This document shows positions 28,276 to 63,107 of a DNA stretch of 64,000 bases, one piece after another. This DNA is from Bacteroidota bacterium. Its GTDB lineage: Bacteria > Bacteroidota > Ignavibacteria > Kapaibacteriales > UBA2268. Position numbers and translations under genes: made by a program. The stretch lies in the NCBI GenBank assembly GCA_040264895.1, contig JBDQHL010000003.1, positions 72 through 64,071 on the forward strand, in the 5' to 3' direction. The notes under the pieces are model-generated. The model worked only from the letters and a program-made list of their open reading frames with translations. It was not told the origin of the DNA and did no database searches. Numbering within the stretch: position 1 is the first letter of the stretch; each line of letters starts with the position of its first letter.

Positions 28276-30087
28276 ATGAGAATACTAACTATATTATTCA
28301 TATTAATATTTTTATCTTCTTGCAGGCCCCATATCAACAAAAAAAATGATATAGATTGCGAGGTTCCAATAGTAGAATGTGAACAATCCTCTTGGACAGG
28401 CTCACCACTTGACACCTCATATTACAACAGTGGTAAAAACTTTTATTACAGTATAAAACAAGTTGAAGGTCTAAATACTTCAGATCAAGAATATTCTATA
28501 TTTCTCTCAGATTTAATTCATCCACAGAGTAATAAAAAAATAAACCTTGCTACCATAGGTGAAGAACTTGGCCAAAGAACATATTTAATAGAAAGAAGTT
28601 TAGATATTAAAACTAAAACAAAAAGATATGACAGTTTTAAAAAAGTTTTAGATATTAAAGGAGATAGCCCAGGGCACATCGGTTTTCCTACATTAGTCGA
28701 CAATGAAAGGATTGTAATAGCTTCAACTTTCGCTTCTGATCAAACCTCAGAAACTAAAATAAATGGTTACTACGAGATAATACCAATAGAAGAATCAATA
28801 GGCCAATCTCGATTATATGACGTTAAAAAAGGTAATGAAAAACAGATTGAAACTGATATAACACACAAATACAGTCATTTGATCTGGGAGTCTCATCCAA
28901 GTTTTGACATGGAGAATAATATATTATTCTTTGCTTCAGACAGGGAGAATGGATACGGCGGGGTCGATTTGTGGTATATGCTATTTGAGGATGAAGAATG
29001 GATAGGTCCGTATAATTGTGGTATGAATGTTAACACACCTTGTGATGACATTACACCCTTTCCTGACCCAAAAGGTAAAAGACTTTATTTTAGTTCAGCT
29101 GCTCATAATAGTGTTGGTGGCTATGACTTGTTTTACATTGATTATAAATTAGAGGTCACTAACTCTAAAAAGTCAGTAGTGTTTGACAGTGAAATATATA
29201 ATGTTGGTGCACCAATTAATACTGTAGCTGATGAGATTTCTCCATTCTTCAAAGACAACCCAGATAACTATTTTTACTATAGTTCTGACCAAGATGGTGA
29301 TTTTGATATATTTGTAAAGCAAAAAGTCTTCAAAAAAGGAACAGATAAATTTAACAGTGAAAATAAGGAAGAAATAGTTGAAAACACTGAAGTAGTTATT
29401 CCCACTGACTCAGTTGATATCAACCCTATGTTTAAATTGGAGGGAGTAGTAACTGATAAAAGAACTCAGGAGCCAATAAAGGATGTAGATGTTTCAGTAA
29501 CTAAAGAAAAAGAAACTACCCCCTACAAGAAAACTAAAACGGATAATGAGGGAAAGTATAAATTTGAACTTGAGAAAGGCCCTGAGTATAATGTGAAAAT
29601 AGAGGATGACACACTCTTCTACGAACAATACACAGTGAAAGTAGACAAGAATAACAAGTCAAATTCGGTAGTCCGAGATATATCAATGGATATTGTTAAA
29701 ACTGTTCGGATTAACTTTGAATATGACAAGTCAGATGAACCTTATGATTATATTTTGGACTCATTAGGAAATCAACAGAATATAACCTGGCAAAATGCCA
29801 TTGACAATCTTTCTAATGATATTAAAGGTTCGCAATCTGTAATAGAAGAAGTAATTATAACAGGTCATACAGATCCAGTTGCAAGTGCATCGTATAATAA
29901 AAATTTAGGCCAGAAAAGGGCAGAGTTTGTTGTTTCTCAGTTAGTAAAACGTGGAATACCTATTTACCTATTAAAAGCAAAAAGTAAAGGTGAGACACAA
30001 AAGCTAGAAAAATTTGAGAACGAGAATACTAAACAATACCATAAGCGTTTAAGAAGAGTTATATTAGAAAAAGTATTTATAAAATGA
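28276..30087 (+). CDS. OmpA-family lipoprotein with PD40/TolB-like repeats and a C-terminal OmpA peptidoglycan-binding domain
   Basis: Lipobox 'LSSC'; 'YYSSDQDGDFDIFV' PD40-type repeats; C-terminal 'ITGHTDPVASASYNKNLGQKRAEFV' OmpA-like motif. Confidence 0.7.
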   Translation: MRILTILFILIFLSSCRPHINKKNDIDCEVPIVECEQSSWTGSPLDTSYYNSGKNFYYSIKQVEGLNTSDQEYSIFLSDLIHPQSNKKINLATIGEELGQRTYLIERSLDIKTKTKRYDSFKKVLDIKGDSPGHIGFPTLVDNERIVIASTFASDQTSETKINGYYEIIPIEESIGQSRLYDVKKGNEKQIETDITHKYSHLIWESHPSFDMENNILFFASDRENGYGGVDLWYMLFEDEEWIGPYNCGMNVNTPCDDITPFPDPKGKRLYFSSAAHNSVGGYDLFYIDYKLEVTNSKKSVVFDSEIYNVGAPINTVADEISPFFKDNPDNYFYYSSDQDGDFDIFVKQKVFKKGTDKFNSENKEEIVENTEVVIPTDSVDINPMFKLEGVVTDKRTQEPIKDVDVSVTKEKETTPYKKTKTDNEGKYKFELEKGPEYNVKIEDDTLFYEQYTVKVDKNNKSNSVVRDISMDIVKTVRINFEYDKSDEPYDYILDSLGNQQNITWQNAIDNLSNDIKGSQSVIEEVIITGHTDPVASASYNKNLGQKRAEFVVSQLVKRGIPIYLLKAKSKGETQKLEKFENENTKQYHKRLRRVILEKVFIK

Positions 30088-32234
30088 CACCAAGAATATT
30101 TCTCATATTATTAATTTCCATCACGGTTGTAGTAACTGCTGGGGTCAGTATTTACTTTTACTCTGTTATTTCTACAGGTTTGCCATCATTAGAGCAATTA
30201 GAAAATCCAGAACAGATGTACGCTAGCCAAGTTATAAGTAGTGACGATGAAGTAGTAGATAACTTCTTCATGCAAAGAAGAGTTAATTTGAAATTAGAAG
30301 AAATGCCAAAATCGGCCATAGATGCATTAATTTCAACTGAAGATAGGAAGTTTTATTCTCATTGGGGAATAGATTTAGATAGACTTGTAAAAGCGGTAAT
30401 CAAAAAATCTTTAAACCCGTTCAAAAGAGCAGAGGGTGCCTCAACCATTACTCAACAACTAGCTAGAAATTTATTCCTAGACCTTTCTCGTAATATAGAC
30501 AGAAAGATAAGAGAAGCTGCCGTTACAGTAAAGATTGAAGACACTTATACAAAAAATGAAATCTTAGAAATGTATTTGAATACTGTAAATTTTGGTAGAG
30601 GGGCCTATGGTATAAGTGTTGCAGCTAGAACTTTCTTTGATAAAAAAGCTGATGACCTGACAATTGCAGAGTCGGCTTACTTGATTGGCTTACTAAAAGC
30701 ACCTTCTCGGTATGACGTAAGGTCTGACTATGATAGAGCATTAAGAAGAAGAAATCTGATTTTATCGATGATGCAATCACAAGGTAAAATTACTTATGAA
30801 GAGTATCAACTAGCATTAGAAACACCTATAGAGGTAAGAGAAGGAACTGCAGTGAGCGCTTCGGAATCAAATCTTGCTCCACATTATGTTGAATCAATAC
30901 GAAGAGAATACTCTCCATTCTTAAAAGATAAAGACTATGACTTATACAGAGATGGTCTTATAATTTACACAACTTTGAATAAGAAGATTCAAGAATATGC
31001 CAATAGCGTGGTAGAAAATCATATAAAAGCATATCAACAAAAATTTGATAAAAAATGGAATTGGAATAAAAACAAAAAGTTAGAATCAGAAATTATCTCG
31101 AAAGCTATAAGAAAGCATCCAGAATATAAATCTTCTCCTAAAAGTAAAAGGGAAGAAGTTGCTATAAAGTTGAAAAAAAATAAGAACTTTATTGATTCTG
31201 TTAAGAATGAAAAAACAACTATCCAAATAGGAATGGTAGTGATTGACCCTGTATCTGGAGCAATATTAGCTATGGTTGGAGCTTCACCTAAGTTCATGGA
31301 GGACAACAGCCACGCTAAGCACTCTTTGAACCACATTACTCAAATTAGGAGACAACCAGGCTCATCTATGAAGCCTTTTGTCTATTCTATGTCTTTAAAA
31401 TCGGGACTTTACCCAACAGATTCTATAGTATGTGGGCCATTTGTTTATACTGACCCACACACTGAAGAAGTATGGGCGCCACGTTCAGGGACTAATGATT
31501 GCCCTGATAGTACATATAAAATGACTGTAGCTACGGCACTGAAAAAATCTGTAAATTCAGTTGCTGCAAGATTAATAACTGAACATACTAACCCAGATGA
31601 AGTTAAAAATTTGTTACAAAAAGCTGGTATATCTACCCCGATAGACGCAGTTCCTGCATTGGCATTAGGAGCAGGTGGTGAAGTTATACCAATGCAACAT
31701 ATTTCTGCATTCTCTATTTTTGCGAACGATGGTTATAGGGTTGAGCCATTCTATGTAAATAGAATTGAAGACAGAAACGGTAATCTTGTTTTTAGAAAGA
31801 AAAGAACAAATAAAATCTACGATGTTTTAGACAAAGAAATTGCACACGAAATGACTATAATGATGCAAGACGTTGTTAACACTGGAACCGCTGCTAGAGT
31901 GAGAAGATACTTCCGTGATGTAGAAGCAGCTGGAAAAACAGGAACTACAAACGATAATTCAGATGCATGGTTTATTGGTTACACACCACAGTTAATTTGT
32001 GGGATATGGGTTGGGTTTGATGATCAGAGAATAAACTTTAACCCAATTGGATATGATGGTCAAGGTGGTCGTGTAGCTGGTCCAATATGGGGTATGTTAA
32101 TGGATAGTATATACACAGATGAAAGCCTACCCTACAAGCAAAAATCATTCGGATATAAAACAAGATTAGAATTAGACTCACTATTGAGCTTGAGAAGACA
32201 AGTTGGTGAGTATTTCGACATTATGAATAACTAG
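30084..32234 (+). CDS. Class A penicillin-binding protein (PBP1A family: GT51 transglycosylase + transpeptidase)
   Basis: GT51 motifs 'EDRKFYSHWGID' and 'GASTITQQLARN'; transpeptidase 'SGTND' and 'KTGTTND'. Confidence 0.85.
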   Translation: MTPRIFLILLISITVVVTAGVSIYFYSVISTGLPSLEQLENPEQMYASQVISSDDEVVDNFFMQRRVNLKLEEMPKSAIDALISTEDRKFYSHWGIDLDRLVKAVIKKSLNPFKRAEGASTITQQLARNLFLDLSRNIDRKIREAAVTVKIEDTYTKNEILEMYLNTVNFGRGAYGISVAARTFFDKKADDLTIAESAYLIGLLKAPSRYDVRSDYDRALRRRNLILSMMQSQGKITYEEYQLALETPIEVREGTAVSASESNLAPHYVESIRREYSPFLKDKDYDLYRDGLIIYTTLNKKIQEYANSVVENHIKAYQQKFDKKWNWNKNKKLESEIISKAIRKHPEYKSSPKSKREEVAIKLKKNKNFIDSVKNEKTTIQIGMVVIDPVSGAILAMVGASPKFMEDNSHAKHSLNHITQIRRQPGSSMKPFVYSMSLKSGLYPTDSIVCGPFVYTDPHTEEVWAPRSGTNDCPDSTYKMTVATALKKSVNSVAARLITEHTNPDEVKNLLQKAGISTPIDAVPALALGAGGEVIPMQHISAFSIFANDGYRVEPFYVNRIEDRNGNLVFRKKRTNKIYDVLDKEIAHEMTIMMQDVVNTGTAARVRRYFRDVEAAGKTGTTNDNSDAWFIGYTPQLICGIWVGFDDQRINFNPIGYDGQGGRVAGPIWGMLMDSIYTDESLPYKQKSFGYKTRLELDSLLSLRRQVGEYFDIMNN

Positions 32235-35900: not shown

Positions 35901-36581
35901 TTGTCTGTTATTATGAGTGATAAAATGATAAAATACAATGTAAACGAAATATTTTACTCCATACAGGGTGAAGGAAGCAGAGCAGGGTTGCCTTGTGTAT
36001 TTGTTAGGATGCAAGGTTGTTTGCTGCGTTGTACTTGGTGCGATACGCCTTACGCTTTAGATAGAAAGCAAACTGAAACGCTAATGAGCATTGAAGAAAT
36101 CTTAAAGGAAGTAGATAGTCACAACTGTAAGTTCTTGATGTTAACCGGTGGAGAGCCTTTAGAACAAAAAAATATTAGTGAATTAGTTGATGCAGCCATA
36201 GATAGAGGTATGGAAGTAGTAATAGAAACAAATGGGCAGCAAGACATAGGAAAGGTTTCTAACAAAGCAGTAAAAATATTAGATTTAAAATGTCCTGGTT
36301 CTGCTATGCACAAGAAGAATAATTACTCTAATATTGAAAAATTAGACGATAAAGATGAAGTGAAGTTTGTAATAAAAGATAGAAACGACTATGACTGGTC
36401 AATTAAGAAATGCGAAGAATATCAGCTATTTGATAGAGTCTCTGAAGTTTTAATGTCACCAGTATTCGGTGAAATTGAGCCAGTAGATTTGGCAAATTGG
36501 ATATTAAAGGATAGCCTTCCAGTTAGAATGCAAATGCAACTTCACAAATATATTTGGGAACCAGCAACCAGAGGCGTGTAG
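35901..36581 (+). CDS. queE: 7-carboxy-7-deazaguanine synthase QueE (radical SAM)
   Basis: 'IFYSIQGEGSRAGLPCVFVRMQGCLLRCTWCDTPYA' is the QueE radical-SAM cluster motif. Confidence 0.85.
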   Translation: MSVIMSDKMIKYNVNEIFYSIQGEGSRAGLPCVFVRMQGCLLRCTWCDTPYALDRKQTETLMSIEEILKEVDSHNCKFLMLTGGEPLEQKNISELVDAAIDRGMEVVIETNGQQDIGKVSNKAVKILDLKCPGSAMHKKNNYSNIEKLDDKDEVKFVIKDRNDYDWSIKKCEEYQLFDRVSEVLMSPVFGEIEPVDLANWILKDSLPVRMQMQLHKYIWEPATRGV

Positions 36582-38011
36582 TGCGATTAAAAACAGCTAC
36601 AATTTTAATATTTTTGACAACTATTCAACTAGTAAGTCAAGAACACTTTGTTGAAAGAAGAAGTTCAGTTGGTGAGATAGGTTTCATATTGAACAATTTA
36701 GGTCAAGTTGGATATAGCAGTGAACTAAATCAATCAAGATTTGTCTGGCCTAAAGGAAGTGATGCGCAATATATTTATGGTGCTGGATTAGCAATATTCA
36801 CGAAGCTCCCAAATGGTGAAAATAGAAATTTCTACACTTATCACCCTAACACATCCAAGAGCGATTTTACTATTGGTTCTTATGCTGACACTTCCGAACC
36901 AACCGAAAGCAAATACAGAGTTTACAATTCAAATGATTATGATATATACTCTGGAATTGCAAAAGAAGAGTTCATGAATGAATTCAGATGGCCAGTGTGG
37001 GTTGGAAATAATAAATTTGAAAAAATATATGGGAATTATATTATTAAAAATTCCGAAAGGACCCGTACCATATCTAGACCCGAAATAAGAAGTGAAGAAG
37101 ATATGGTTACTATCGCAAAAATAGACGCCAGCTATCCGATTGAGAAAATTCCAAATCCAAAAGAATCCGGAGATCTCAGAATAGATGTTGAGACCAAAAC
37201 ATATACATTAGAAAACTTACCAAATGTGCTTTTTATAACTTGGATCGTTCACAACAGAGGTACAAAAATTTTAGACAGTGTCTCTATTGCCCCTATAGTA
37301 GATATTGACATAACTAGAGCAAGCCAAAGATTCAAAGGTGTAGATAATGACATAATGTTACTTCCTGAAGATGATTCTTATGCAGTATTCGCAACCGAAG
37401 TGGATGAAACTGAAAAAGGGGAAGAGTTTCAATATATGGTAATTGACAATGACTACAAAATTGATATTGAATATAATGAAAATCAAAATTTATCTAGGCT
37501 AAATTATGGTGTATATAATCTAGGTTTAGAAACTGATTATAGTTTTTTTCAAATGGAAGATTATATTCAACCTGATTCAGTAAAAAAAATAACGGGTGAG
37601 ATTAAAGTGTTTTCACCTTCCCACAGATTTAATTTATTAGCAGGGAAAAAAGTAGTTCTGACCTTACAGATTTTGATGTTCCCAGCTAATGATGACTACC
37701 CTGAATTCCCTAAGCAAGGTATTGAAAATTTAGGTCAGGTTTTAGATAACAATTGGATTGAATTTTACAGAGAAGTAAGAACTAATGTTGATATTACTGA
37801 AATCCGAGAGTTAGACTTATTCCCAAACCCTGCTAGAAACTTCATAAATATTGACAGCAAATACAAGGCTGATTTAGTTGAAATTATATCTTTAGAAGGG
37901 AAAGTTGTAAAAACTTCAAAAGGGTTAGATAGTATAGATATCACCTCCCTTCAGTCTGGTGTATATATCTTAAGAATTGGTGAGATGAGTAGGAAATTTA
38001 TAGTGGAGTGA
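36581..38011 (+). CDS. Secreted hypothetical protein with a T9SS C-terminal sorting domain (ORF track starts at TTG 36554; GTG 36581 gives a clean signal peptide)
   Basis: Starting at GTG 36581 (read as Met) gives N-terminus '(M)RLKTATILIFLTTIQLVSQ', a clean signal peptide; C-terminus 'LDLFPNPARNFINID...GVYILRIGEMSRKFIVE' is a canonical T9SS CTD. Confidence 0.55.
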   Translation: MRLKTATILIFLTTIQLVSQEHFVERRSSVGEIGFILNNLGQVGYSSELNQSRFVWPKGSDAQYIYGAGLAIFTKLPNGENRNFYTYHPNTSKSDFTIGSYADTSEPTESKYRVYNSNDYDIYSGIAKEEFMNEFRWPVWVGNNKFEKIYGNYIIKNSERTRTISRPEIRSEEDMVTIAKIDASYPIEKIPNPKESGDLRIDVETKTYTLENLPNVLFITWIVHNRGTKILDSVSIAPIVDIDITRASQRFKGVDNDIMLLPEDDSYAVFATEVDETEKGEEFQYMVIDNDYKIDIEYNENQNLSRLNYGVYNLGLETDYSFFQMEDYIQPDSVKKITGEIKVFSPSHRFNLLAGKKVVLTLQILMFPANDDYPEFPKQGIENLGQVLDNNWIEFYREVRTNVDITEIRELDLFPNPARNFINIDSKYKADLVEIISLEGKVVKTSKGLDSIDITSLQSGVYILRIGEMSRKFIVE

Positions 38012-41332: not shown

Positions 41333-44300
41333 ATGAAATTTTCTAGATATTTAACAAAAGAAGACAGTAGCGTATATGACTTGTTCAAATACACACATCG
41401 TGCGTCTTCAATAAAAAATCCAGATGGCTCTGCAGTTTTCGATATGAAAAATGTAGAAGTCCCTACAGGTTGGTCTCAGATGGCCACAGATATATTAGCC
41501 CAAAAATACTTTAGAAAAGCTGGTGTACCTCAGTTCGATGAAGACGGAAAGAAATTATTAGATGAAAATGGCGACCAGGTAACTGGCACTGAAAACTCTG
41601 TGAAGCAAGTTGTTCACCGTTTGGCTGGCACTTGGAGGCATTGGGGCGAGCAATATAACTACTTTGATACTAAAAAAGACGCTGAAATATTTTATGAAGA
41701 AGCTGCCTACATGCTTCTTAATCAATCGGCTGCACCAAACTCACCACAGTGGTTCAACACAGGTCTTAACTTCGCTTATGGCATAACTGGCAACAAGCAA
41801 GGTCACTACTATGTGAACCCAGATTCAGGTAAGATAGAAAAGTCGAAAGATGCATACACTAGACCTCAACCCCACGCATGTTTTATTCAGTCTGTTAGCG
41901 ATGACATGCTCAACGAAGGTGGTATATTTGATCTAATTACTCGCGAAGCAAGAATATTCAAATTTGGTAGCGGTACTGGATCAAATTTCTCACAAATAAG
42001 AAGTAGCGAAGAACCATTATCAGGAGGGGGGGTATCTTCTGGAATGATGAGCTTCTTGAAAATATTTGATAAAGCCGCAGGGGCAATCAAATCAGGTGGT
42101 ACTACAAGGCGTGCAGCAAAGATGGTAGTGGTTGATATTGATCACCCAGATGTAGAGGAATTTATAGAGTGGAAAGCGAAGGAAGAAGAAAAAGTTGCAG
42201 CATTAGTAACTGGTTCTAAGATAAATAAGGTTTTCTTGTCAGCGATCATGGAAGAGGCAATTACTAACGGTGCTGATGTAGAAAACAATAATGTATTGAA
42301 AGATTTAGTTAAGCGTGCTGTTCACCGTGGTGTTCCACTTAACTATATCGATAGAGTTCTTGATTTAGTAAAACAGGGATTCACTTCTATTGATATAGAA
42401 GAGTATGACACTCACTACGAGAGCGAAGCTTACAACACAGTTAGTGGTCAAAACGCTAATAACTCTGTCCGTGTTACTAACGACTTTATGAAAGCTGTGG
42501 AAGCTGACGAAGAGTGGGAACTGAAGTGGAGAACTGATGAAAAACGCACAAGAAGACTAAGAGCAAGAGACCTATGGAACAAGATTAACTTATCAGCTTG
42601 GAAATCGGCTGACCCAGGTTTGCAGTATGATACTACTATTAACGAGTGGCACACTTGCCCAGAGTCAGGCAGAATTAATGCTTCTAATCCTTGTTCAGAG
42701 TATATGTTCTTAGACGATACTGCTTGTAACTTGGCGAGTTTGAACTTAATGAAGTTCTACAACGAAGAGACAAGCGAGTTTGATATAGAAGGTTACAAAC
42801 ACGCAATTAGAGTTTGGACTGTAATATTAGAAATCTCTGTGCTAATGGCACAGTTTCCATCGAAGAAAGTAGCTGACTTGAGCTATAAATTCAGAACATT
42901 GGGTCTTGGATATGCAAACATTGGTACTTTACTAATGGTGAATGGTATTCCTTACGATTCGCAAGAGGCGTTGGCTTGGACAGGTGCTCTGACTTCTATC
43001 TTATGTGGTCAGGCATACACAACTTCATCTGAAATGGCGAAAGAACTTGGTACTTTCCCAGAATATGATTTGAACTCTAAGCACATGCTAAAAGTTATCC
43101 GTAACCACAGAAGAGCTTCTTATAATGTTAAGACTTCAGAATACGAAGGCCTAACAATCAGACCTCAAGGTATAGATACAAGATTCTGTCCACAAGATAT
43201 GTTAGTAGCGGCAAGAGAAGTGTGGGACAACGCACTAGAAATGGGTGAAAACCACGGTTACAGAAATGCACAAGTAACAGTTATTGCTCCTACTGGAACT
43301 ATTGGTCTGGTAATGGATTGTGATACTACTGGTATCGAACCAGACTTTGCAGTTGTAAAATACAAAAAATTAGCTGGTGGTGGATACTTCAAGATTGTAA
43401 ATCAATCAGTAAGAAAAGCATTAGTTAAGCTAGGTTACACTGAAACAGAAATAGAAGAAATTGTAAAGTACAGTAAAGGTCATGGTACTTTGGTAGGTTG
43501 CCCAGCAATCAACAAAGCTACTTTGATGGAAAAAGGATTTACTGAAGAGAAATTGAAATTAGTTGAAGACCAATTAGACGACGTGTTTGATATTAAGTTT
43601 GCATTCAACAAATGGACATTGGGCGAAGACTTTATGATGAAGTTGGGTCTTAGTGACGAAGAAATTGCCGACTCAAATCTGAACATATTAGGTGCTATTG
43701 GCTTCACGGCTGAAGAGATAGAAGAAGCAAACGACTATATATGTGGTACAATGATGATAGAAGGTGCACCGCACCTAAAAGAAGAACACCTACCAATATT
43801 CGACTGTGCTAATAAGTGCGGTAAGAAAGGTGAGAGATCAATTTCTTACATGGGTCACGTTAAGATGATGGCAGCGGCTCAACCGTTCATCTCTGGTGCT
43901 ATCTCTAAGACTGTGAATATGTCTGGTGACGCATCTGTAAATAATATAAGCGAAGTGCACATGAAGTCATGGAAACTGATGTTGAAAGCAATTGCTCTTT
44001 ACAGAGATGGCTCTAAACTTTCACAACCATTGAACTCAGCTAACTATGACGATATGGACGAAGTAGTTCTATTAGGTGATGAGACTTCGCTTGATGAAAC
44101 ACTTGGTGCTAAAGAACTACACGAACACAGAGAAGGCAAATTGGTTCGCCAATCTCAAAGATACAAACTGCCTAAGAGAAGAAAAGGTATAATCAGAGAA
44201 GCTACAGTTGGTGGGCACAAGATATTCTTAAGAACTGGTGAGTACGAAGATGGCCAATTGGGTGAAATCTTCATAGATATGTACAAAGAAGGTGCTGCTT

Positions 44301-44851
44301 ACCGTGGAATGCTTAACAGCTTCGCAATCTTGGCTTCCAAAGCATTACAATATGGTGTGCCATTGGAAGAGCTTGTTGATACATTCACTTTCACTAGGTT
44401 CGAACCAGCTGGCATGGTACAAGGTCACGAAGCGATTAAGAACTCTACATCTATCTTAGATTATGTATTCCGTACTCTTGGTTATGACTACTTGCAGAGA
44501 AATGACTTAGTACATGTGTTCGACAATGATGCAGAAAAAACTGAACTGAACACTGATGCTGCTGCGCAATTGCAAGATATTGAAGCAAGGGGCAACGACG
44601 GTAATGAAGGCGATCAGCCAGATGAAAAAGATATTGCAAAAAACAGATTAGACAGCCATTCTACTTTGAAGCTGAAAGCAGTAACAACTAACACTAAAAG
44701 TGGTGGTAACGCAAGAACTGCTGAGCTAAAAGAAGCAATGAGCTTGGGCTACACAGGTGAGATGTGCTCTACTTGTAGCTCATCGCGAGTGAAGCGCAAC
44801 GGTAGCTGTACGGTCTGCGAGGACTGCGGCACAACGAGCGGCTGCTCGTAA
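41333..44851 (+). CDS. nrdJ: Adenosylcobalamin-dependent (class II) ribonucleotide reductase NrdJ, long form with a C-terminal Cys-rich Zn-ribbon tail
   Basis: '[22 protein letters not shown]' class II active-site region; C-terminus '[27 protein letters not shown]'. Confidence 0.9.
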
Positions 44852-57121: not shown

Positions 57122-57733
57122 ATGGCAAATATATTTGAATTTGATGGCTATAAACCAGTTATTGATGAATCAGCTTACATACACCCAAATGCAACTGTAA
57201 CAGGCAATGTCGTAATTGGGAAGGACGTTTACATTGGTCCTGGTGCAGCTATTCGTGGTGACTGGGGTGGCATAATTATAAAAGATGGATGCAACGTTCA
57301 AGAAAACTGTACTATTCATATGTTTCCAGGTGTTACTGTAGTTTTAGAAGAATCTGCACATATAGGCCACGGTGCAATTATCCACGGAGCTCATATTGGT
57401 AAAAATAGCTTAATCGGTATGAATGCAGTTATTATGGACAACGCCGAAGTAGGCAATGGGTGTGTAGTTGGTGCACTTTGTTTTGTTCCTGCAGGAATGG
57501 AAATACCAAATAGGAAAGTTGTAGTCGGCAACCCTGCTAAAATTGTAAAAGATGTTTCTGACGAAATGTTACACTGGAAAACAGAAGGCACTAAACTATA
57601 TCAACAGTTGCCTAATGATTTAAGAAGCACTCTTAATCCATGTGAACCATTGAGAGAAATGCCAAAGGATAGTAAGGTTCAAGAAAACAAATACAAGACT
57701 TGGAAAGAAGAAAAGAAAAAGAAGGATAAATAA
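57122..57733 (+). CDS. Gamma-class carbonic anhydrase / hexapeptide-repeat (LbH) family protein with a Lys-rich tail
   Basis: Left-handed beta-helix repeats with His ligands ('CTIHMFPGV...HIGHGAIIHGAHIG'). Confidence 0.75.
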   Translation: MANIFEFDGYKPVIDESAYIHPNATVTGNVVIGKDVYIGPGAAIRGDWGGIIIKDGCNVQENCTIHMFPGVTVVLEESAHIGHGAIIHGAHIGKNSLIGMNAVIMDNAEVGNGCVVGALCFVPAGMEIPNRKVVVGNPAKIVKDVSDEMLHWKTEGTKLYQQLPNDLRSTLNPCEPLREMPKDSKVQENKYKTWKEEKKKKDK

Positions 57734-58332
57734 TGGTAAACTCACCTGTAGCACTAATTATATTTTTATCAACTTTAGTAATCACCCTATATGTGATGTA
57801 TAAAAAACAGTCATTATATAGTAAACTTGTTCTGAGTCCATATGCTGTTAAACACAACAACGAATGGTACAGATTTCTAACAAGTGGCTTTATCCATGCT
57901 GACCTAATGCATATGGGTTTCAATATGCTTACATTCTACTTTTTTGCATTCAGATACGAAGCAATAACAAGTGGGCTACAATTTATAATAGTGTACATAG
58001 GTTCAATGATTTTAGCAGACGTGGTTACTTATATCAGAAACAAGGATAACCCTCGCTATGCAGCACTTGGTGCTTCAGGAGCAATTTCTGGGTTGCTCTT
58101 CAGCTTCATCCTCTATGATCCATCTATGAGTCTGTATATTATGTTTGTACCAATACCTATACCAGCTCCTATATTTGCTGTTTTGTATTTGGTCTATTGT
58201 TGGTATGCTGATAGACAATCAGCTGATAATGTTAACCATAATGCACACTTATGGGGTGCTGTTGCAGGCCTAACAATTACACTTTTATTAGACCCATCTA
58301 CTTTTATGGGCTTTATCCAATATATATTTTAA
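57733..58332 (+). CDS. Rhomboid-family intramembrane serine protease
   Basis: 'GASGAISGLLF' (GxSG) and 'AHLWGAVAGL' (catalytic His) in TM helices. Confidence 0.8.
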   Translation: MVNSPVALIIFLSTLVITLYVMYKKQSLYSKLVLSPYAVKHNNEWYRFLTSGFIHADLMHMGFNMLTFYFFAFRYEAITSGLQFIIVYIGSMILADVVTYIRNKDNPRYAALGASGAISGLLFSFILYDPSMSLYIMFVPIPIPAPIFAVLYLVYCWYADRQSADNVNHNAHLWGAVAGLTITLLLDPSTFMGFIQYIF

Positions 58333-58343
58333 TAAAAATTAGA

Positions 58344-61300
58344 TTAGAAGTCATAACCCAGAGAGAAAAGATATTGCGGTACAGACCAATTATCATAGGT
58401 TTTAGACCAAGCTATATCTATTTTTAATGGAAGACCTAAAACATAAGTTCGTATTCCTAAACCTGATGAAATCATTAAATCATCGTATTCTTTTCTAAAG
58501 CTAAGTGGGTCGACTATATTTGTTGGATTAAAATTATCATCCCAAGCAGCGCCTACATCTAAGAATACAGCCCCCATCACACCTTGTATAAGTATTGGCA
58601 AAGGTCCTGCTATCAGAGCAGTAAGCATAGGGAAACGAAACTCTGCGTTCGTCAAAAAGTATTTACTACCATTATTTGCTGCAATTGAAAAACCACGCAT
58701 TGGGTATTTGAAGTTCATAAAAGCAAAATCTTCAGGTTCATTGAATGGTAATCGGCCATTTCTGAAACTTCTGTTTAGCCAGTTATCAGTACCACCCAAG
58801 TAGAACTGTTGTGCATCATCACCAAAGCTTGCTCCACTAGTAAATTTGAAAGCAAAGCCTATAAAGTCCGATAATGGATGATAAGTTCTTATATCGGTCT
58901 CAAAAGTAAAGAACTCCAACCCATCACTAAATATGTTGGGGCTACCAGTTACTGTGAAATTATATCTTGTACCATCTCTCGGACCATATAACCCGAAAAG
59001 TACATCATCGTGAACATATTTGAATTCTGGGACTATCAGGGTACGAGTAACAGAAGGCTCTCCTGCATTTACTATATCAGTTCTTGACAAGTTGTACCAA
59101 GTCATATTGAGCTCTGCCCTATTGAATAAATCGAAAGGATACTGAGCAGAAATAGCACCACCATAACTTCTGAATCGAAGCACAGCCCCACCCAAACCAG
59201 TCGATGTAAATCCTGCATTATGAAAACCAGAGAACTGGTAATCAATAATACCTGGTAAGTAGCTATAAGCGCCATAGAAATTACTGTTTCGTAAGTCTAT
59301 TAGTAAGTTTGCTTGAAAAAAGAGTTGGTGATTCCCCAACTCATCACTAAATAGCATCTGGGTACTACCTTGAGCACCAAAGAATGTACTGTATCCTGGG
59401 TTTGCAAGAATAATATCTGGTGAAAATTTAAGTTTATAGTCTTTTATTCTAAAGTTCTCATCATACTCTTCATCTTCACCATTATTAACTATTTGTACTT
59501 TTTGATTAGGCTTTACTATCTCTTGATTTTCGAAATCAATATTGAAATCACCATAACTAATAAGTTGGTCATCTTTCTTGTTACTGACAGTATCAATTTT
59601 CTTATTATTAATTTCTCTTATTAAGCTATCCCTTTTGGCTTGTGTTCTTTTGTAGTCTGTTAGTGGTAAGATTTCCTCCTCAAGTTCTATATCAAATGGG
59701 TAATCAATAGAAAATATGTCATATCCACCATCAATCTGAGTTCCAAATAAAACTTTGCTATCATCTCTATCCAAAGAAAGTTGAGTAATACCTTGTAATG
59801 AATTAGTAAGAGGTCTGCTTTTACGAGAATTTAAATCAAGAGAGTAGATATTACCTATACCGTTTTTATCAGAGATATAGAGTATTTTACTTTCATCTGA
59901 AGACACTGCTACAGAAGTTTTTCTATTATCTACGTCATCTGTTAATCTTTCAACTTTAGATGAACTGATATCAATTCTATAAATATCATTCTTACCATAA
60001 TTGTAGTCCCACATTTCCATATCATCAGGACCAATATTTGTAGCTGTCCTGCTTCCTCTATCTGAAATGAAATAGATACTTTCGGAATTTGGGGCCCAAG
60101 CTGGTAGCTCATCAGTAAATAAATCATTAGTCAGATTCTTTAACTCTTCTGATTCCAAATCATAAGTATATATATCACTCTTTTCGTCATCAGTTGCAAT
60201 GAATGCTAATTGCTCTCCATTGGGTGACCAAGTAACAGATGAAATTGATTTCAATCCCCAAGTCAACTTATCATAAGCTCCAGTTTCTACATCAGTTATA
60301 AAGACTGCATCTTGCCCACCAGATTTAGCAGAAATAGCTATTTTATTTCCATCTGGATTCCAAGATATACCGGGTGTAAGCATATTCAAATCTTCAAAAT
60401 CTTGTGTTCTAAAACTCGACACTAATGGCCTAATGCTTTTCATATCATCCAAATCCTCCATAACAGCTACTACGAAAACTCCACCTTGCTCAGAGATGAA
60501 CGCCATTTGATCTCCATCTGGTGAAATAGCTGGAGCTGAGTTATAGAAATTACCTAGTTTTTTTCTTTTCGTTATTCTGTCAGCAATTTCAGGTAGTGCT
60601 TTGAATTTTTCTAAGTCTGGCCAATAAATTCTCTTTATGTCACGTTCCCACATCTCATTGAACTCTTCTAAAGACATATCGAAGCTACTTTTGAAAGCAA
60701 CTTCAAGGTTTTTGTGTATGTTTAAACGGTTGATAAAGTCTGCTACTTTTTCTTTCCCATATTTATCAGCTACATACCAATAGAATGTCTGCCCTACTCT
60801 ATACTGCGCATATCCGCTAATTCTTTGTAACTCTGGTAGGCTCTCACTAATTGCAACATCCCTCATGAATATATCAGTTTGGGTATCCATACCGTCATTA
60901 CTAAGGTATTCGCACAGACCCTCATTGAGCCAACCTGGGATGAAATACCCTTGGTTTCTCAAAGATGATTGCAAAGTACCACCGTGGAACATATCATTAA
61001 GAACACCGTGAACCAGCTCGTGGTGGACAACATGTCTGAATTGCTCATAGTCCCCTTGGTATGGAACTACTATTCTATTCTTGAATAGCTGAGTAACACC
61101 ACCCACATTTTCTGAAAGGAATGAGTTGATAATATTATTTTGCTGAAATTGATTGTGAGAATTGAAAACGATGAAAGATATCCTCATTTTCATATTATAT
61201 TTCAGATTACTCTCTATAGATTGCAATGCCCTTTCTGCTTCAACTGCAGTGAACTTTGCTAAGTATTCGCCACCTTGGTGAAAATAAATATCGAAGTGCT

Positions 61301-61424
61301 TAGTTTCAATGAATTTCCATTCGAATTCTTGGTATTGAACTCTATTCTTTCCGAACTGGGAATACACACTGGCAGTTGAGAGTAAAGCAATTGAAAGTAT
61401 TATAAAGCTTTTTATAAATTTCAT
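58344..61424 (-). CDS. 1026-aa outer-membrane protein with unusual architecture: signal peptide, HExxH Zn-metallopeptidase-like domain, multiple PD40/TolB-like propeller repeats, C-terminal Omp85 (bacterial surface antigen) beta-barrel
   Basis: 'VVHHELVHGVLNDMFHGG...NEGLCEY' (HExxH plus downstream Glu); repeats such as 'WSPNGEQLAFIATDDEKSDIYTYDL'; C-terminal 'YPMRGFS...NAEFRFPM' resembles Omp85 RGF/ExRFP motifs; terminal aromatic '...LGYDF'. Confidence 0.6.
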   Translation of the reverse strand: MKFIKSFIILSIALLSTASVYSQFGKNRVQYQEFEWKFIETKHFDIYFHQGGEYLAKFTAVEAERALQSIESNLKYNMKMRISFIVFNSHNQFQQNNIINSFLSENVGGVTQLFKNRIVVPYQGDYEQFRHVVHHELVHGVLNDMFHGGTLQSSLRNQGYFIPGWLNEGLCEYLSNDGMDTQTDIFMRDVAISESLPELQRISGYAQYRVGQTFYWYVADKYGKEKVADFINRLNIHKNLEVAFKSSFDMSLEEFNEMWERDIKRIYWPDLEKFKALPEIADRITKRKKLGNFYNSAPAISPDGDQMAFISEQGGVFVVAVMEDLDDMKSIRPLVSSFRTQDFEDLNMLTPGISWNPDGNKIAISAKSGGQDAVFITDVETGAYDKLTWGLKSISSVTWSPNGEQLAFIATDDEKSDIYTYDLESEELKNLTNDLFTDELPAWAPNSESIYFISDRGSRTATNIGPDDMEMWDYNYGKNDIYRIDISSSKVERLTDDVDNRKTSVAVSSDESKILYISDKNGIGNIYSLDLNSRKSRPLTNSLQGITQLSLDRDDSKVLFGTQIDGGYDIFSIDYPFDIELEEEILPLTDYKRTQAKRDSLIREINNKKIDTVSNKKDDQLISYGDFNIDFENQEIVKPNQKVQIVNNGEDEEYDENFRIKDYKLKFSPDIILANPGYSTFFGAQGSTQMLFSDELGNHQLFFQANLLIDLRNSNFYGAYSYLPGIIDYQFSGFHNAGFTSTGLGGAVLRFRSYGGAISAQYPFDLFNRAELNMTWYNLSRTDIVNAGEPSVTRTLIVPEFKYVHDDVLFGLYGPRDGTRYNFTVTGSPNIFSDGLEFFTFETDIRTYHPLSDFIGFAFKFTSGASFGDDAQQFYLGGTDNWLNRSFRNGRLPFNEPEDFAFMNFKYPMRGFSIAANNGSKYFLTNAEFRFPMLTALIAGPLPILIQGVMGAVFLDVGAAWDDNFNPTNIVDPLSFRKEYDDLMISSGLGIRTYVLGLPLKIDIAWSKTYDNWSVPQYLFSLGYDF

Positions 61425-61753: not shown

Positions 61754-62515
61754 GTGAATAAATTAATATTATTATTCAGCCTCACTAGCATAACTATTGC
61801 TCAAGTAAATACAGAGGCAATTCGTAATAGTAGCATAAAAAATGGATTTAGGTCTAAAATTGATTTGCTATTTGGGCTAAATGCAGGAAACTCAGAATAT
61901 ATTAGTGGTGAAGCAAATTTGAGAATGGACTATATAGGAGTAAATTACCGTACATTCATAGCTGGTCAAATTGCTTATAAAGAAGGTAACGAAGAAGTAA
62001 TAAGCAATAAAGGGTTCTTACATGGTAGATTTATTTACGAACTAAGTGAGCTCTTCGAACCAGAGCTGTTTTTACAAAAAGAATACAACGAGTTTGTATT
62101 GATAGCTGACAGAAACTTAGCCGGTGGTGGTATCAGATGGTCAATATTTGATAATGACTTTGTTGCTGACTCGTCACGGGAATTTGATTTATTTCTAGGT
62201 GTGGGAGCTATGTATGAAATGGAAGAAATAAATCAGAATCCCACTGCGGTAACAGAAATTTTACGCTCAACCAATTATTTAACTTTACTATGGAAGCCAA
62301 GTGAAAATTTTTTGTTAAATTCGGTAACTTACTTTCAGGTAGATGTAAATAGATTAGCTGACCATAGGGTTTTGAATGACACAAACTTGAATTTTAAAAT
62401 AACTGAGTCAGTCAAATTTGTATTTTCATTGAGTTACAGATACGATAGCGAACCCCCTGGGAGTATAAAACCATATGATTTGGAATTAAAAAATGGGATA
62501 ACCTTTGAATTATAA
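61754..62515 (+). CDS. DUF481-like outer-membrane beta-barrel protein
   Basis: Signal peptide, alternating beta-strand pattern, C-terminal '...GITFEL'. Confidence 0.55.
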   Translation: MNKLILLFSLTSITIAQVNTEAIRNSSIKNGFRSKIDLLFGLNAGNSEYISGEANLRMDYIGVNYRTFIAGQIAYKEGNEEVISNKGFLHGRFIYELSELFEPELFLQKEYNEFVLIADRNLAGGGIRWSIFDNDFVADSSREFDLFLGVGAMYEMEEINQNPTAVTEILRSTNYLTLLWKPSENFLLNSVTYFQVDVNRLADHRVLNDTNLNFKITESVKFVFSLSYRYDSEPPGSIKPYDLELKNGITFEL

Positions 62516-63107
62516 ATGGAAGATAATAGCGCTTTTGTTTATTGCATTTTGTCTTTCTTCTTGTGACAAAGAAGAGTCGAATATCGAATATACAAAGCAA
62601 ATAGAAGAGTACAGAGCAAATGTAATTGACTTTTTTCTCAACTCTCAAGATTCACCATTAGTAGATATGATGGAGAAATCTGAGCCTATATACTATGCTC
62701 CAAAAGAAAAGTATAGAGTTGAGGCATATTTAGAACAATTTGACAATCAGGACACATTAGAAATGCTTACAACTCAGAGCGATGTTAGAAAAATGGTTCG
62801 TTATGGCGAGTTACAATTTAAATTAGATGATCAAAAATATACATTGAATGCATACATTAATGTTGAGCACCCTGAGAGCTTTTTTGTTCCATTCCACGAC
62901 AAAACAAATGGCAAAGAAACATATGAAGCAGGTAGATATATAGATATAGAAAGAACAGATAAGACTCAATATATTTTAGATTTTAACTTAGCTTACAACC
63001 CTTATTGCTATTACAATCCAAAGTATTCTTGTCCGATTGTACCAGAAGAAAATATATTAAACACAAAAATAGAAGCAGGCGAAAAGGCAGACAATGAAAA
63101 ACATTAG
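62505..63107 (+). CDS. DUF1684-like lipoprotein
   Basis: Lipobox 'CLSSC'; 'LAYNPYCYYNPKYSCPIVPEEN' matches the DUF1684 conserved Cys-containing motif. Confidence 0.55.
   Translation: MNYKWKIIALLFIAFCLSSCDKEESNIEYTKQIEEYRANVIDFFLNSQDSPLVDMMEKSEPIYYAPKEKYRVEAYLEQFDNQDTLEMLTTQSDVRKMVRYGELQFKLDDQKYTLNAYINVEHPESFFVPFHDKTNGKETYEAGRYIDIERTDKTQYILDFNLAYNPYCYYNPKYSCPIVPEENILNTKIEAGEKADNEKH

What the first reader, a model, noticed from the sequence alone, without database searches (positions are those of the whole stretch)
58344..61424. Omp85-family outer-membrane protein with a protease-like domain and PD40 propellers where POTRA domains would be
The C-terminal roughly 350 aa carry Omp85/bacterial-surface-antigen hallmarks (YPMRGFS, NAEFRFPM, terminal aromatic ...LGYDF). 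The periplasmic portion begins with an HExxH(+E) zinc-peptidase-like domain (VVHHELVHG...NEGLCEY), followed by six or more PD40/TolB-type beta-propeller repeats. POTRA-Omp85 (BamA/TamA) is the norm. A protease-like domain and propellers fused to an Omp85 barrel suggests a self-contained substrate-capture or processing and insertion/secretion machine. Bacteroidota Tam systems are poorly characterised, and the TamB-like giant gene at the other end of the window is noteworthy in that context.
Basis: partly seen in the sequence, partly recalled or inferred. Interest (0 to 1): 0.6.

Follow-up and report, generated by a model that had tools for sequence, protein, structure and literature searches.

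The report
Peptidase-propeller Omp85 outer-membrane protein, already catalogued
This gene encodes a 1026-residue outer-membrane protein that joins a zinc-protease-like domain and a six-bladed propeller to a BamA-type barrel; it is real and widely conserved, but it belongs to the 'WD40-Omp85' subfamily catalogued in 2014, whose function has never been tested.

Summary
ORF 58344..61424 (-) encodes:
- a signal peptide;
- a gluzincin-type metallopeptidase domain (Pfam Peptidase_MA_2 above its cut-off; HELVH135-139 plus E168/E172);
- a six-bladed PD40/TolB-type propeller;
- an ~85-aa, largely disordered tether with no POTRA;
- a 16-stranded Omp85 barrel carrying the L6 RGF and beta13 FxDxG motifs.

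The zinc-site and barrel motifs are invariant in 79 orthologs (40-94% identity) and nearly so in 110 full-length representatives at 28-45% identity. The peptidase-domain family has about 5,300 clusters.

The architecture is not new. Heinz & Lithgow (2014) defined a 'WD40-Omp85' subfamily. Their Table S3 records the same three template classes: BamA/TamA, TolB and aminopeptidase/collagenase. A 2024 paper restates 'WD40 and peptidase domains'. I found no experimental work.

The TamB gene in the window is 56 kb away on the opposite strand. A TamB - RNase R - target gene order exists only in the Ignavibacteria clade.

Best reading: an outer-membrane-anchored, periplasm-facing, propeller-gated zinc peptidase. 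The anatomy is secure; the envelope quality-control role is inferred. It is a new member of a known but uncharacterised kind, of modest interest.

The parts
58344..61424 (-). Complete ORF, 1026 aa plus TAA stop (58344-58346). The gene stands alone between a convergent rhomboid gene and a divergent DUF481 gene.
61359..61424 (-). Sec signal peptide, aa 1-22 (MKFIKSFIILSIALLSTASVYS). It contains no Cys, so this is not a lipoprotein.
   Evidence: Read directly from the sequence; modelled as a helix at aa 2-17 with low pLDDT at 15-25.
61332..61358 (-). Conserved mature N-terminus QFGKNRVQY (aa 23-31). It is highly conserved but modelled with low confidence, and its role is unexplained.
   Evidence: In representatives at 28-45% identity, F24 is kept in 101/111, G25 in 109/111 and N27 in 106/111; pLDDT is low.
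60570..61337 (-). Gluzincin-type (clan MA) metallopeptidase-like domain, aa ~30-285.
   Evidence: Pfam Peptidase_MA_2 at 39.5 bits, above the GA of 32.4; the Foldseek top 50 are all M9/M1 gluzincins.
61008..61022 (-). HELVH (aa 135-139): two zinc-binding His and the catalytic Glu.
   Evidence: Invariant in 119 homologs and in 79 loci; H135 111/111, E136 109/111 and H139 109/111 in distant representatives.
60906..60926 (-). NEGLCEY (aa 167-173). E168 is the probable third zinc ligand, matching the 'WLNEG' motif of M1 enzymes; E172 is also invariant.
   Evidence: E168 109/111 and E172 111/111 in distant representatives. The assignment as ligand rests on analogy with M1/M9 enzymes (my own knowledge).
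59700..60542 (-). Six-bladed PD40/TolB/tricorn-type beta-propeller, aa ~295-575.
   Evidence: PD40 E 1e-18; TolB hits; 23 strands in the AF2 model; Tricorn_N/Tricorn_2nd Pfam hits on an ortholog.
59445..59699 (-). Tether, aa 576-660: helix 590-607, then a disordered stretch at 608-651. Its length varies across orthologs. There is no POTRA. A short semi-conserved YGDFxIDF motif sits at aa 624-631 (59532-59555).
   Evidence: pLDDT ~34 for aa 610-650; length 81-143 aa across 79 orthologs, with Y624 at 87% and G625 at 82%.
58347..59444 (-). Omp85-type 16-stranded beta-barrel, aa 661-1026.
   Evidence: 16 long strands in the AF2 DSSP; Foldseek to BamA/TamA barrels; the profile finds only BamA/Omp85 in the PDB; TIGR03303 E 1.8e-8.
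58686..58706 (-). Loop L6 motif YPMRGFS (aa 907-913), the Omp85 (V/I)RG(F/Y) hallmark.
   Evidence: R910 and G911 are invariant in 79 loci and kept in 107/111 distant representatives.
58551..58565 (-). Strand beta13 motif FLDVG (aa 954-958), the Omp85 (F/G)xDxG hallmark.
   Evidence: F954, D956 and G958 are invariant in 79 loci; 107, 106 and 101 of 111 in distant representatives. It aligns to BamA 'FFWDMG'.
58347..58364 (-). C-terminal SLGYDF (aa 1021-1026): a terminal aromatic beta-signal, with Gly at -4 in the position of the BamA beta16 Gly.
   Evidence: Gly at -4 in 119/119, 74/79 and 103/111 sequences; terminal aromatic in 101/111.

Best explanation
The gene encodes a member of the 'WD40-Omp85' subfamily of the Omp85 superfamily: an outer-membrane-anchored, periplasm-facing, propeller-gated zinc metallopeptidase.

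Shown here:
- A cleavable signal peptide with no lipobox.
- A gluzincin-fold domain whose HExxH+E zinc site is conserved down to about 28% identity.
- A six-bladed TolB/tricorn-type propeller.
- A length-variable, largely disordered tether of 81-143 aa without POTRA.
- A 16-stranded Omp85 barrel that keeps the L6 RGF / beta13 FxDxG lock and a beta16 glycine.

Inferred:
- After Sec export, BAM inserts the barrel into the outer membrane through its C-terminal aromatic signal.
- In all solved Omp85 barrels strand beta1 starts at the periplasmic face, and here L6 falls at the expected position. So the ~65-kDa peptidase-propeller module should hang in the periplasm on the flexible tether.
- The propeller acts as a binding platform or size filter, as in tricorn protease and S9 peptidases, admitting only unfolded chains or peptides to the zinc site, where E136 activates water.
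- The most likely job is processing or removal of unfolded or mis-assembled envelope proteins close to the outer membrane. This would be functionally analogous to the BAM-associated protease BepA. The barrel would serve mainly as the anchor and possibly as a docking edge for beta-strand substrates.

My sub-confidences: family identity and anatomy ~0.95; active protease ~0.75; periplasmic orientation ~0.75; quality-control or processing role ~0.3.
For: Anatomy.

Omp85 membership:
- The profile of the C-terminus hits only BamA/Omp85 chains in the PDB, 41 of 41.
- 13 of 22 orthologous barrels hit PF01103, and 22 of 22 hit TIGR03303.
- Foldseek aligns the model to BamA/TamA barrels with TM 0.60-0.65.
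- The RGF and FxDxG motifs are invariant.

Active site under purifying selection:
- H135, E136, H139, E168, E172 and Y208 are invariant in 119 and 79 sequences.
- They are kept in 109-111 of 111 full-length representatives at 28-45% identity.

Fusion conserved:
- 110 of the 149 best representatives retrieved are at least 900 aa long.
- The nine most divergent still show PD40 (9/9), Peptidase_MA_2 at E<=1e-3 (7/9) and Omp85 above GA (5/9).
- At least 594 species genomes carry a relative.

Tether: disordered in the model, variable in length and poorly conserved.

Prior cataloguing with the same templates: PMC4104836 main text and Tables S2/S3 and PMC11358297.

Propeller-as-filter analogy: the orthologs hit Tricorn_N/Tricorn_2nd and DPPIV_N.
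Against: - No experiment exists for any member.
- Orientation is argued from Omp85 topology, not measured.
- The N-terminal profile finds no solved structure by sequence. The fold matches are moderate (TMq 0.45-0.59, E ~1e-3 to 1e-4).
- There is no conserved gene neighbourhood to hint at substrates or partners.
- The barrel's conserved gate-like features (beta16 Gly, L6 lock) suggest it may do more than anchor.
- The strongly conserved, unmodelled N-terminal FGKNKVQY motif is not explained by this picture.
Confidence: 0.6

Rival explanations
1. Self-exported surface protease, a type Vd-like or 'inverse' autotransport. The long tether threads through the Omp85 barrel, and the peptidase-propeller module is displayed on the cell surface, where it degrades external proteins for nutrition.
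For: - Some Omp85-superfamily barrels do translocate polypeptides; Heinz & Lithgow discuss FhaC and PlpD.
- The tether is disordered, 81-143 aa long and poorly conserved, which is long enough to cross a barrel.
- The proteins are almost free of cysteine, with a median of 1-2 per protein and a single Cys in the query. As far as I recall, this is typical of autotransporter passengers.
- The closest folds include secreted M9 collagenases.
Against: - There is no POTRA, whereas PlpD and FhaC retain POTRA domains (PMC4104836 Table S2).
- Strand beta1 of Omp85 barrels starts in the periplasm.
- A ~65-kDa propeller plus helical domain is an unusual passenger.
- TolB-type PD40 propellers are typically periplasmic.
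- The organism has a T9SS for surface proteins: a Por_Secre_tail protein lies at 36554..38011.
- No helix-in-pore could be verified.
Confidence: 0.15
2. An outer-membrane-protein assembly scaffold, the 'BamA-BamB fusion' proposed by Heinz & Lithgow. The propeller would recruit BAM partners or substrates and the barrel would take part in insertion. The peptidase-like domain would act as a chaperone or binding module rather than as an enzyme.
For: - This is the interpretation offered in PMC4104836.
- The barrel keeps the L6/beta13 lock and the beta16 Gly in the BamA position.
- BamA is the best-matching curated model.
Against: - The propeller has six blades and is TolB/tricorn-like, not the eight-bladed BamB type.
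- POTRA domains, which BamA needs to function, are absent.
- The catalytic Glu and all zinc ligands are conserved at ~30% identity, which a non-enzymatic module would not require.
- The TIGR03303 score is 33 bits against a cut-off of 297.
Confidence: 0.1
3. The outer-membrane partner of TamB, a TAM-like module. The barrel would dock the giant TamB bridge in lineages that have no tamA/tamL next to tamB.
For: - In 18 of 80 related loci, all of the Ignavibacteria type, the gene order is TamB - RNase R - target on one strand.
- In the I. album-type contig no other Omp85 gene flanks TamB.
- In the window's own genome TamB (1519 aa) also has no adjacent Omp85 gene.
- There are weak hits to the TamL model: E 1.8e-5 for the window barrel, and 8 of 22 orthologs.
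Against: - The synteny is confined to one clade, so it probably reflects a single event. It is interrupted by RNase R and by a 160-bp gap.
- In the window the two genes are 56 kb apart on opposite strands.
- No neighbour is conserved family-wide.
- As far as I know, TamA binds TamB through POTRA, which is missing here.
- Orphan TamB proteins are known to work with BamA (PMC5582053).
Confidence: 0.08

Closest known systems
WD40-Omp85 ('WD40-like') subfamily of the Omp85/TpsB superfamily (Heinz & Lithgow 2014, Front Microbiol 5:370, PMC4104836)
   Same: It has the same three modules in the same order. Their Table S2 lists PF01103 plus one to five PF07676 (PD40) domains. Their Table S3 gives, for nearly every member, BamA 4k3b or TamA 4c00 for the barrel, TolB 2w8b/2ivz for the propeller, and an 'aminopeptidase' template (1z5h F3, 3qnf ERAP1, 4kxd, 4ar1/4ar9 collagenase). 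These are the same template families my models hit. No POTRA column is filled for that cluster.
   Different: The window protein comes from a Kapaibacterium-type lineage that was probably not sampled in 2014. I could not retrieve the UniProt sequences, so I could not repeat their clustering formally. The paper's main text discusses only the WD40 part and proposes a BamA-BamB analogy. It does not analyse the zinc site.
BamA / TamA (canonical POTRA-Omp85 insertases)
   Same: A 16-stranded barrel with the L6 RG(F/Y) motif, the beta13 FxDxG motif and a C-terminal Gly-x-x-aromatic. These are the best curated model (TIGR03303) and the best solved-structure matches.
   Different: It has no POTRA domains at all. 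The score is far below the BamA equivalog cut-off (33 against 297 bits). A ~600-aa enzyme-like module sits in place of the POTRA arm.
TolB and the tricorn/S9-peptidase PD40 propellers
   Same: A six-bladed PD40 propeller. TolB is the best sequence and fold match, and orthologs hit Tricorn_N/Tricorn_2nd and DPPIV_N. In tricorn and S9 enzymes the propeller gates access to a peptidase site, which is the working model adopted here.
   Different: It is not TolB: 121 bits against the 343 cut-off, and the TolB N-terminal domain is missing. The attached peptidase is a zinc gluzincin, not a serine hydrolase.
Gluzincin metallopeptidases (clan MA(E)): M9 collagenases ColG/ColH/ColT and M1 aminopeptidases (F3, ERAP1, LTA4H); Pfam Peptidase_MA_2
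   Same: HExxH plus a downstream Glu in an (N/E)EGxxE context. The fold matches cover ~265-280 columns, and Pfam PF13485 scores above its gathering cut-off. The His-to-Glu spacing of 29 residues is nearer to M9 than to the x18 of M1, as far as I recall.
   Different: Sequence identity is only 10-16%. The profile finds no solved structure by sequence. The accessory domains of M1 and M9 enzymes are missing. Activity and specificity are unknown.
BepA-BAM (E. coli periplasmic HExxH protease that docks on BAM and degrades stalled OMPs): a functional analogy only
   Same: A zinc HExxH protease held next to an Omp85 barrel at the inner face of the outer membrane. Here the link would be covalent rather than an association.
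   Different: BepA is an M48 enzyme with a TPR domain and is not homologous to this protein. The analogy comes from my own knowledge and was not tested here.
PlpD / type Vd secretion (patatin-Omp85)
   Same: An Omp85 barrel carrying a non-POTRA enzyme domain at its N-terminus (PMC4104836).
   Different: PlpD keeps a POTRA domain and exports a patatin lipase. Here there is neither POTRA nor patatin.

Membership tests
Omp85 superfamily | C-terminal 16-stranded beta-barrel of the BamA/TamA fold | tested here: met
   The AF2 model (pLDDT 84.8) has 16 long strands between aa 668 and 1022. Foldseek to BamA/TamA barrels gives E ~1e-11 and TM 0.60-0.65 on barrel-only chains. This rests on a model, not a solved structure.
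Omp85 superfamily | Loop L6 (V/I)RG(F/Y) motif | tested here: met
   PMRGF at aa 908-912. R910 and G911 are invariant in 79 orthologs and kept in 107/111 distant representatives.
Omp85 superfamily | Strand beta13 (F/G)xDxG motif | tested here: met
   FLDVG at aa 954-958, invariant in 79 orthologs. It aligns to BamA FFWDMG in the profile hits.
Omp85 superfamily | Significant match to the Pfam PF01103 profile | tested here: inconclusive
   The window sequence has no PF01103 hit, even alone at E<=10. However, 13 of 22 orthologous barrels hit it (best 3.5e-15), 5 of 9 distant representatives score above GA, the window barrel hits TIGR03303 at E 1.8e-8, and the family profile hits only Omp85 chains in the PDB.
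BamA (TIGR03303 equivalog) / TamA | One to five N-terminal POTRA domains | tested here: not met
   No PF07244 hit. None of the 120 homologs carries PF07244. Residues 576-660 are modelled as one helix plus disorder.
BamA (TIGR03303 equivalog) / TamA | Score above the curated equivalog cut-off | tested here: not met
   33.3 bits against 297.
TamL (lipoprotein Omp85 of Bacteroidota/Chlorobiota) | Lipoprotein signal (lipobox Cys), POTRA domains, and a score above NF052279's cut-off | tested here: not met
   The signal peptide has no Cys. There is no POTRA. The score is 20-23 bits against 400.
WD40-Omp85 subfamily (Heinz & Lithgow 2014) | Omp85 barrel preceded by PD40/WD40-like repeats whose best template is TolB | tested here: met
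   compared with Tables S2/S3 of PMC4104836.
WD40-Omp85 subfamily (Heinz & Lithgow 2014) | Additional N-terminal aminopeptidase/collagenase-like domain (the 'best aminopeptidase hit' column of Table S3) | tested here: met
   The Foldseek hits 4ar9, 4ar1, 1z1w (F3) and 3qnf belong to the same template set as their Table S3.
WD40-Omp85 subfamily (Heinz & Lithgow 2014) | Falls in their sequence-similarity (CLANS) cluster together with the listed UniProt members | not testable with these tools
   UniProt sequences could not be fetched. Exact look-ups returned no UniProt accessions, and AFDB50 was unavailable.
Gluzincin metallopeptidase (clan MA(E); Pfam Peptidase_MA_2) | HExxH motif plus a third, downstream Glu ligand | tested here: met
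   H135-E-L-V-H139 with E168 (NEG) and E172. They are invariant or kept in at least 109/111 sequences.
Gluzincin metallopeptidase (clan MA(E); Pfam Peptidase_MA_2) | Profile score above the curated cut-off, and a thermolysin-like/gluzincin fold | tested here: met
   PF13485 at 39.5 bits against GA 32.4. The top 50 Foldseek hits are all gluzincins.
Gluzincin metallopeptidase (clan MA(E); Pfam Peptidase_MA_2) | Zinc binding and peptide-bond hydrolysis | not testable with these tools
   This needs biochemistry.
TolB (TIGR02800 equivalog) | Score above the cut-off, and the TolB N-terminal alpha/beta domain | tested here: not met
   121 bits against 343. Only the propeller part of the profile (positions ~194-302) is matched.
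Type Vd autotransporter (PlpD-like) | Patatin passenger plus POTRA plus Omp85 barrel | tested here: not met
   No PF01734 and no PF07244 hit.

The most novel reading that the evidence does not exclude
The protein could be an all-in-one outer-membrane quality-control station. Its Omp85 barrel keeps the L6 lock and the beta16 glycine of a gating barrel. It would capture stalled or orphan beta-barrel precursors by strand pairing at its seam. Its tethered, propeller-gated zinc peptidase would then destroy them. This would be a covalent equivalent of BamA + BamB + BepA. In Ignavibacteria it might also work alongside the neighbouring TamB.
Probability: 0.12. Interest if true: 0.7.

Novelty: new member of a known kind. 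Interest (0 to 1): 0.3.

Why it matters
The WD40-Omp85 subfamily is large. The peptidase-domain profile finds about 5,300 clusters at 50% identity, 1,104 of them at E<=1e-30, and at least 594 species genomes carry close relatives. It is strongly conserved, yet I found no experimental work on it in the searchable literature.

This analysis adds several points to the 2014 catalogue entry:
- The zinc site is under strict purifying selection down to ~28% identity, so the domain is very probably a working protease rather than a relic.
- The fold is M9/M1-like.
- The propeller has six blades and is tricorn/TolB-like.
- The connection to the barrel is a variable, disordered tether.
- The barrel keeps features linked to function in BamA.

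Together these give a concrete, testable hypothesis for a family that could represent an unrecognised route of envelope protein turnover in Bacteroidota and related phyla. It does not open a new category. For the scan it should rank as a correctly read but already catalogued architecture.

Tried and rejected
- **Direct Pfam PF01103 match.** Negative for the whole protein and for the isolated C-terminus at E<=10. Resolved through orthologs, profiles and structure.
- **N-terminal profile against the PDB.** An hmmsearch of the N-terminal domain profile gave 0 hits, so only the fold comparison links it to solved gluzincins.
- **Conserved operon or partner.** ORF clustering over 80 loci found no neighbour shared by more than 18 loci. 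The recurring ones are TamB and RNase R in one clade, plus unrelated two-component, SDR, RNase III and DctP genes.
- **TamB linkage within the window.** Rejected: the genes are 56 kb apart on opposite strands. TamB in the source genome has no adjacent Omp85 gene either.
- **Promoter/terminator scan of 58000-62000.** Uninformative in this AT-rich sequence: 28 promoter-like sites against 17 expected, and no terminator at the gene's end.
- **Literature searches for functional data on the subfamily.** Nothing beyond the 2014 catalogue and later citations.
- **Considered and rejected.** Chance HExxH (rejected on conservation, Pfam score and fold); a non-Omp85 porin (rejected); an assembly or fusion artefact (rejected, because the fusion recurs in hundreds of genomes).

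Full report
**The observation.** The ORF is exactly as described: 58344..61424 on the minus strand, 1026 aa. Every quoted motif is present: HELVH at 135, NEGLCEY at 167, YPMRGFS at 907, NAEFRFPM at 926 and the terminal LGYDF. The N-terminus is a typical Sec signal peptide without a cysteine, so the protein is not a lipoprotein. The gene stands alone. A rhomboid-family gene converges on its 3' end, and a DUF481 gene diverges from its 329-bp upstream region.

**The peptidase domain.**
- Pfam Peptidase_MA_2 matches aa 66-263 over nearly its whole length, at 39.5 bits against a gathering cut-off of 32.4.
- A profile of 22 orthologous N-terminal domains finds nothing in the PDB by sequence.
- An AF2 model of aa 23-290 (pLDDT 83.5, pTM 0.82) gives only gluzincin metallopeptidases among its 50 best Foldseek matches. 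These are the peptidase domains of the M9 collagenases ColT, ColG and ColH, and M1 enzymes such as tricorn-interacting factor F3, ERAP1/2, IRAP, LTA4H and aminopeptidase N (TMq 0.45-0.59).
- H135, E136, H139, E168, E172 and Y208 are invariant in 119 full-length homologs and in 79 orthologs from related genomes at 40-94% identity.
- They are retained in 109-111 of 111 sequences in an alignment of the query with 110 full-length cluster representatives that are only 28-45% identical to it.
- The 'WLNEG' context of E168 resembles the third-ligand motif of M1 enzymes. That comparison comes from my own knowledge.

The HExxH is therefore not coincidental, and the site looks functional.

**The propeller.**
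- PD40 repeats score E 1e-18.
- TolB is the best curated family but far below its cut-off, at 121 against 343 bits. It is also the best PDB sequence match.
- In the full-length AF2 model (pLDDT 84.8, pTM 0.81), aa 296-574 hold 23 strands in six groups. That is a six-bladed propeller, as in TolB. Foldseek matches TolB at E 4e-13.
- Newer Pfam families recorded for orthologs are Tricorn_N and Tricorn_2nd.

**The barrel and what precedes it.**
- The window sequence itself does not reach Pfam PF01103, even when the C-terminus is searched alone. This was the one soft spot in the finding. Several results resolve it, as follows.
- The isolated C-terminus hits the BamA model TIGR03303 at E 1.8e-8, as do 22 of 22 orthologs.
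- 13 of 22 orthologous C-termini hit PF01103, the best at 3.5e-15.
- A profile of the region finds only BamA or other Omp85 chains in the PDB, 41 of 41 hits.
- The model aligns over about 400-430 columns to BamA and TamA barrels, with TM 0.60-0.65 on barrel-only chains.
- The model has 16 long strands. The long loop carrying PMRGF (the L6 RG(F/Y) hallmark) falls between strands 11 and 12, and FLDVG (the (F/G)xDxG hallmark) lies on strand 13. Both motifs are invariant in the orthologs and nearly so in distant representatives.
- The C-terminus S-(L/I)-G-x-(D/E)-aromatic has a glycine four residues from the end in 103 of 111 distant representatives. As I recall, that is the position of the beta16 kink glycine in E. 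coli BamA.
- Between propeller and barrel (aa 576-660) the model shows one helix and a disordered stretch. This region ranges from 81 to 143 aa among orthologs and is poorly conserved apart from a short YG-containing motif.
- There is no POTRA signal in the query or in any of the 120 listed homologs.

**Distribution.**
- The protein search returned 880 relatives, and the best 120 are all full length.
- A scan of one genome per species found at least 594 genomes with a relative. The best 80 are Kapaibacterium/Kapabacteria and Ignavibacteria assemblies, including ones labelled Ignavibacterium album and Melioribacter roseus. The closest is a 'Chlorobiota' MAG at 94% identity.
- NCBI taxonomy now places Kapaibacterium in Bacteroidota.
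- The exact window protein is already in public collections, named 'Tol biopolymer transport system component', on a 2.25-Mb contig.
- An exhaustive profile search with the peptidase domain found 5,281 clusters at 50% identity with E<=1e-3, and 1,104 with E<=1e-30. Of the 149 best representatives retrieved, 110 are at least 900 aa long.
- The nine most divergent of these still carry PD40 (9/9), Peptidase_MA_2 (7/9 at E<=1e-3) and Omp85 (5/9 above the gathering score).

**What is already known.** Heinz & Lithgow (2014, PMC4104836) divided the Omp85/TpsB superfamily into subfamilies and described a 'WD40-Omp85' cluster with a TolB-like propeller. They likened it to a BamA-BamB fusion.
- Their Table S2 lists PF01103 with up to five PF07676 domains for the 'WD40-like' cluster.
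- Their Table S3 gives, for about a hundred members, a BamA/TamA template for the barrel and a TolB template for the propeller. A column headed 'best aminopeptidase hit' lists 1z5h, 3qnf, 4kxd and 4ar1/4ar9. My models hit the same template families.
- Several accessions in that list look, from memory of UniProt accession ranges, like Ignavibacterium and Melioribacter entries. I could not verify this.
- The subfamily is cited by name in 2016 (PMC5582053).
- It is summarised in 2024 as having 'divergent WD40 and peptidase domains' (PMC11358297).
- I found no experimental study of any member.

So the architecture is a known, uncharacterised kind, and the window holds a new member of it.

**The TamB question.**
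- The window's TamB-domain ORF (22..2604, truncated at the window edge) is 56 kb from the target, on the other strand.
- Across 80 related loci no neighbour is shared by more than 18.
- Those 18 loci are of the Ignavibacteria type. They show TamB, then RNase R, then the target on one strand.
- In the I. album-type contig nothing Omp85-like flanks TamB.
- In the window's own genome the complete TamB (1519 aa) also has no adjacent Omp85 gene.
- This is clade-level synteny interrupted by an unrelated gene, so it is only a weak hint. Orphan TamB proteins are known to work with BamA.

**How it most likely works.**

Shown:
- a secreted protein with an Omp85 barrel, a flexible tether, a six-bladed propeller and a gluzincin domain with a conserved zinc site.

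Inferred:
- The barrel is inserted by BAM.
- Omp85 barrels begin at the periplasmic face and L6 sits where expected, so the N-terminal module hangs in the periplasm.
- The propeller binds or filters unfolded chains, as in tricorn and S9 peptidases.
- The zinc site cleaves them.
- The likely role is processing or clearance of unfolded envelope proteins near the outer membrane, by analogy with BepA at BAM.

I give the anatomy and family assignment about 0.95, an active protease about 0.75, the periplasmic orientation about 0.75, and the quality-control role about 0.3.

Rivals:
- surface display by self-export (0.15);
- a non-catalytic BamA-BamB-like assembly scaffold (0.10);
- a TamB partner (0.08).

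**Unexplained.**
- The mature N-terminus (A/S)|QFGKNKVQY is among the best conserved stretches of the protein, yet it is modelled with low confidence.
- The predicted periplasmic turn at aa 936-944 (AGPxPIL) behaves the same way.
- Either could be a docking peptide for the barrel, for the active site or for a partner.

**Verdict.** This is a new member of a known kind, and interest is modest (0.3).

Noticed in passing
window 22..2604 (+); loci L083/L084 10947-15506: A TamB-domain ORF is cut off by the window's start. In the source genome it is 1519 aa (DUF748, TamB_N, TamB). It has no TamA/TamL/Omp85 gene beside it; its neighbours are rsmH/mraZ on one side and pyruvate kinase on the other.
   Followed up: yes
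loci L033, L034, L038-L040, L047-L049, L052, L056, L061, L067, L068, L070, L071, L078, L080; L081 3057-13156: In Ignavibacteria-type genomes the order TamB, RNase R, peptidase-PD40-Omp85 gene is conserved on one strand. The targets are 49-90% identical to each other. In L081 the genes upstream of TamB are a PfkB kinase and a CTP_transf_like gene, which look like HldE-type heptose genes.
   Followed up: partly
window 61332..61358 (aa 23-31 of the target): The mature N-terminus QFGKNRVQY is highly conserved, even at ~30% identity, but is modelled with low confidence. In close homologs the first residue after the signal peptide is Gln in 118 of 119. This fits the Bacteroidota 'Q-rule' of pyroglutamate N-termini, as far as I recall.
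   Followed up: partly
window 58593..58619 (aa 936-944 of the target): The predicted periplasmic turn between barrel strands 12 and 13 (LIAGPLPIL) has pLDDT below 50, yet A939, G940 and P943 are nearly invariant. It could be a partner-binding or lumen-lining segment.
   Followed up: no
window 28276..30087 (+) and 30084..32234 (+): A 603-aa protein with PD40, CarboxypepD_reg and a C-terminal OmpA domain overlaps the start of a class A penicillin-binding protein (transglycosylase plus transpeptidase). This is a second PD40 envelope protein in the window.
   Followed up: no
window 20218..22257 (-): An S9 prolyl-oligopeptidase-family serine peptidase with a DPPIV_N/PD40 propeller. It is a classical propeller-gated peptidase, encoded in the same window.
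   Followed up: no
window 36554..38011 (+): A 485-aa protein with a Por_Secre_tail (T9SS C-terminal sorting) domain, so the organism probably has a type IX secretion system for surface proteins.
   Followed up: no
window 41333..44851 (+): A class II (B12-dependent) ribonucleotide reductase of 1172 aa with a C-terminal TSCPD domain. The barrel domain is matched in two stretches, so an insertion is possible.
   Followed up: no
window 61754..62515 (+), 62505..63107 (+), 57733..58332 (+): The immediate neighbours of the target are a DUF481 protein (divergent), a DUF1684 protein and a rhomboid-family protein (convergent, with stop codons 11 bp apart). None of them appears in the recurring neighbour clusters of the 80 related loci.
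   Followed up: partly
protein P0196 (519 aa): One representative has the peptidase domain and ends with the barrel's C-terminal motif (…YWSLGLDF), but it is only 519 aa long. It may be a propeller-less variant or an assembly artefact.
   Followed up: no
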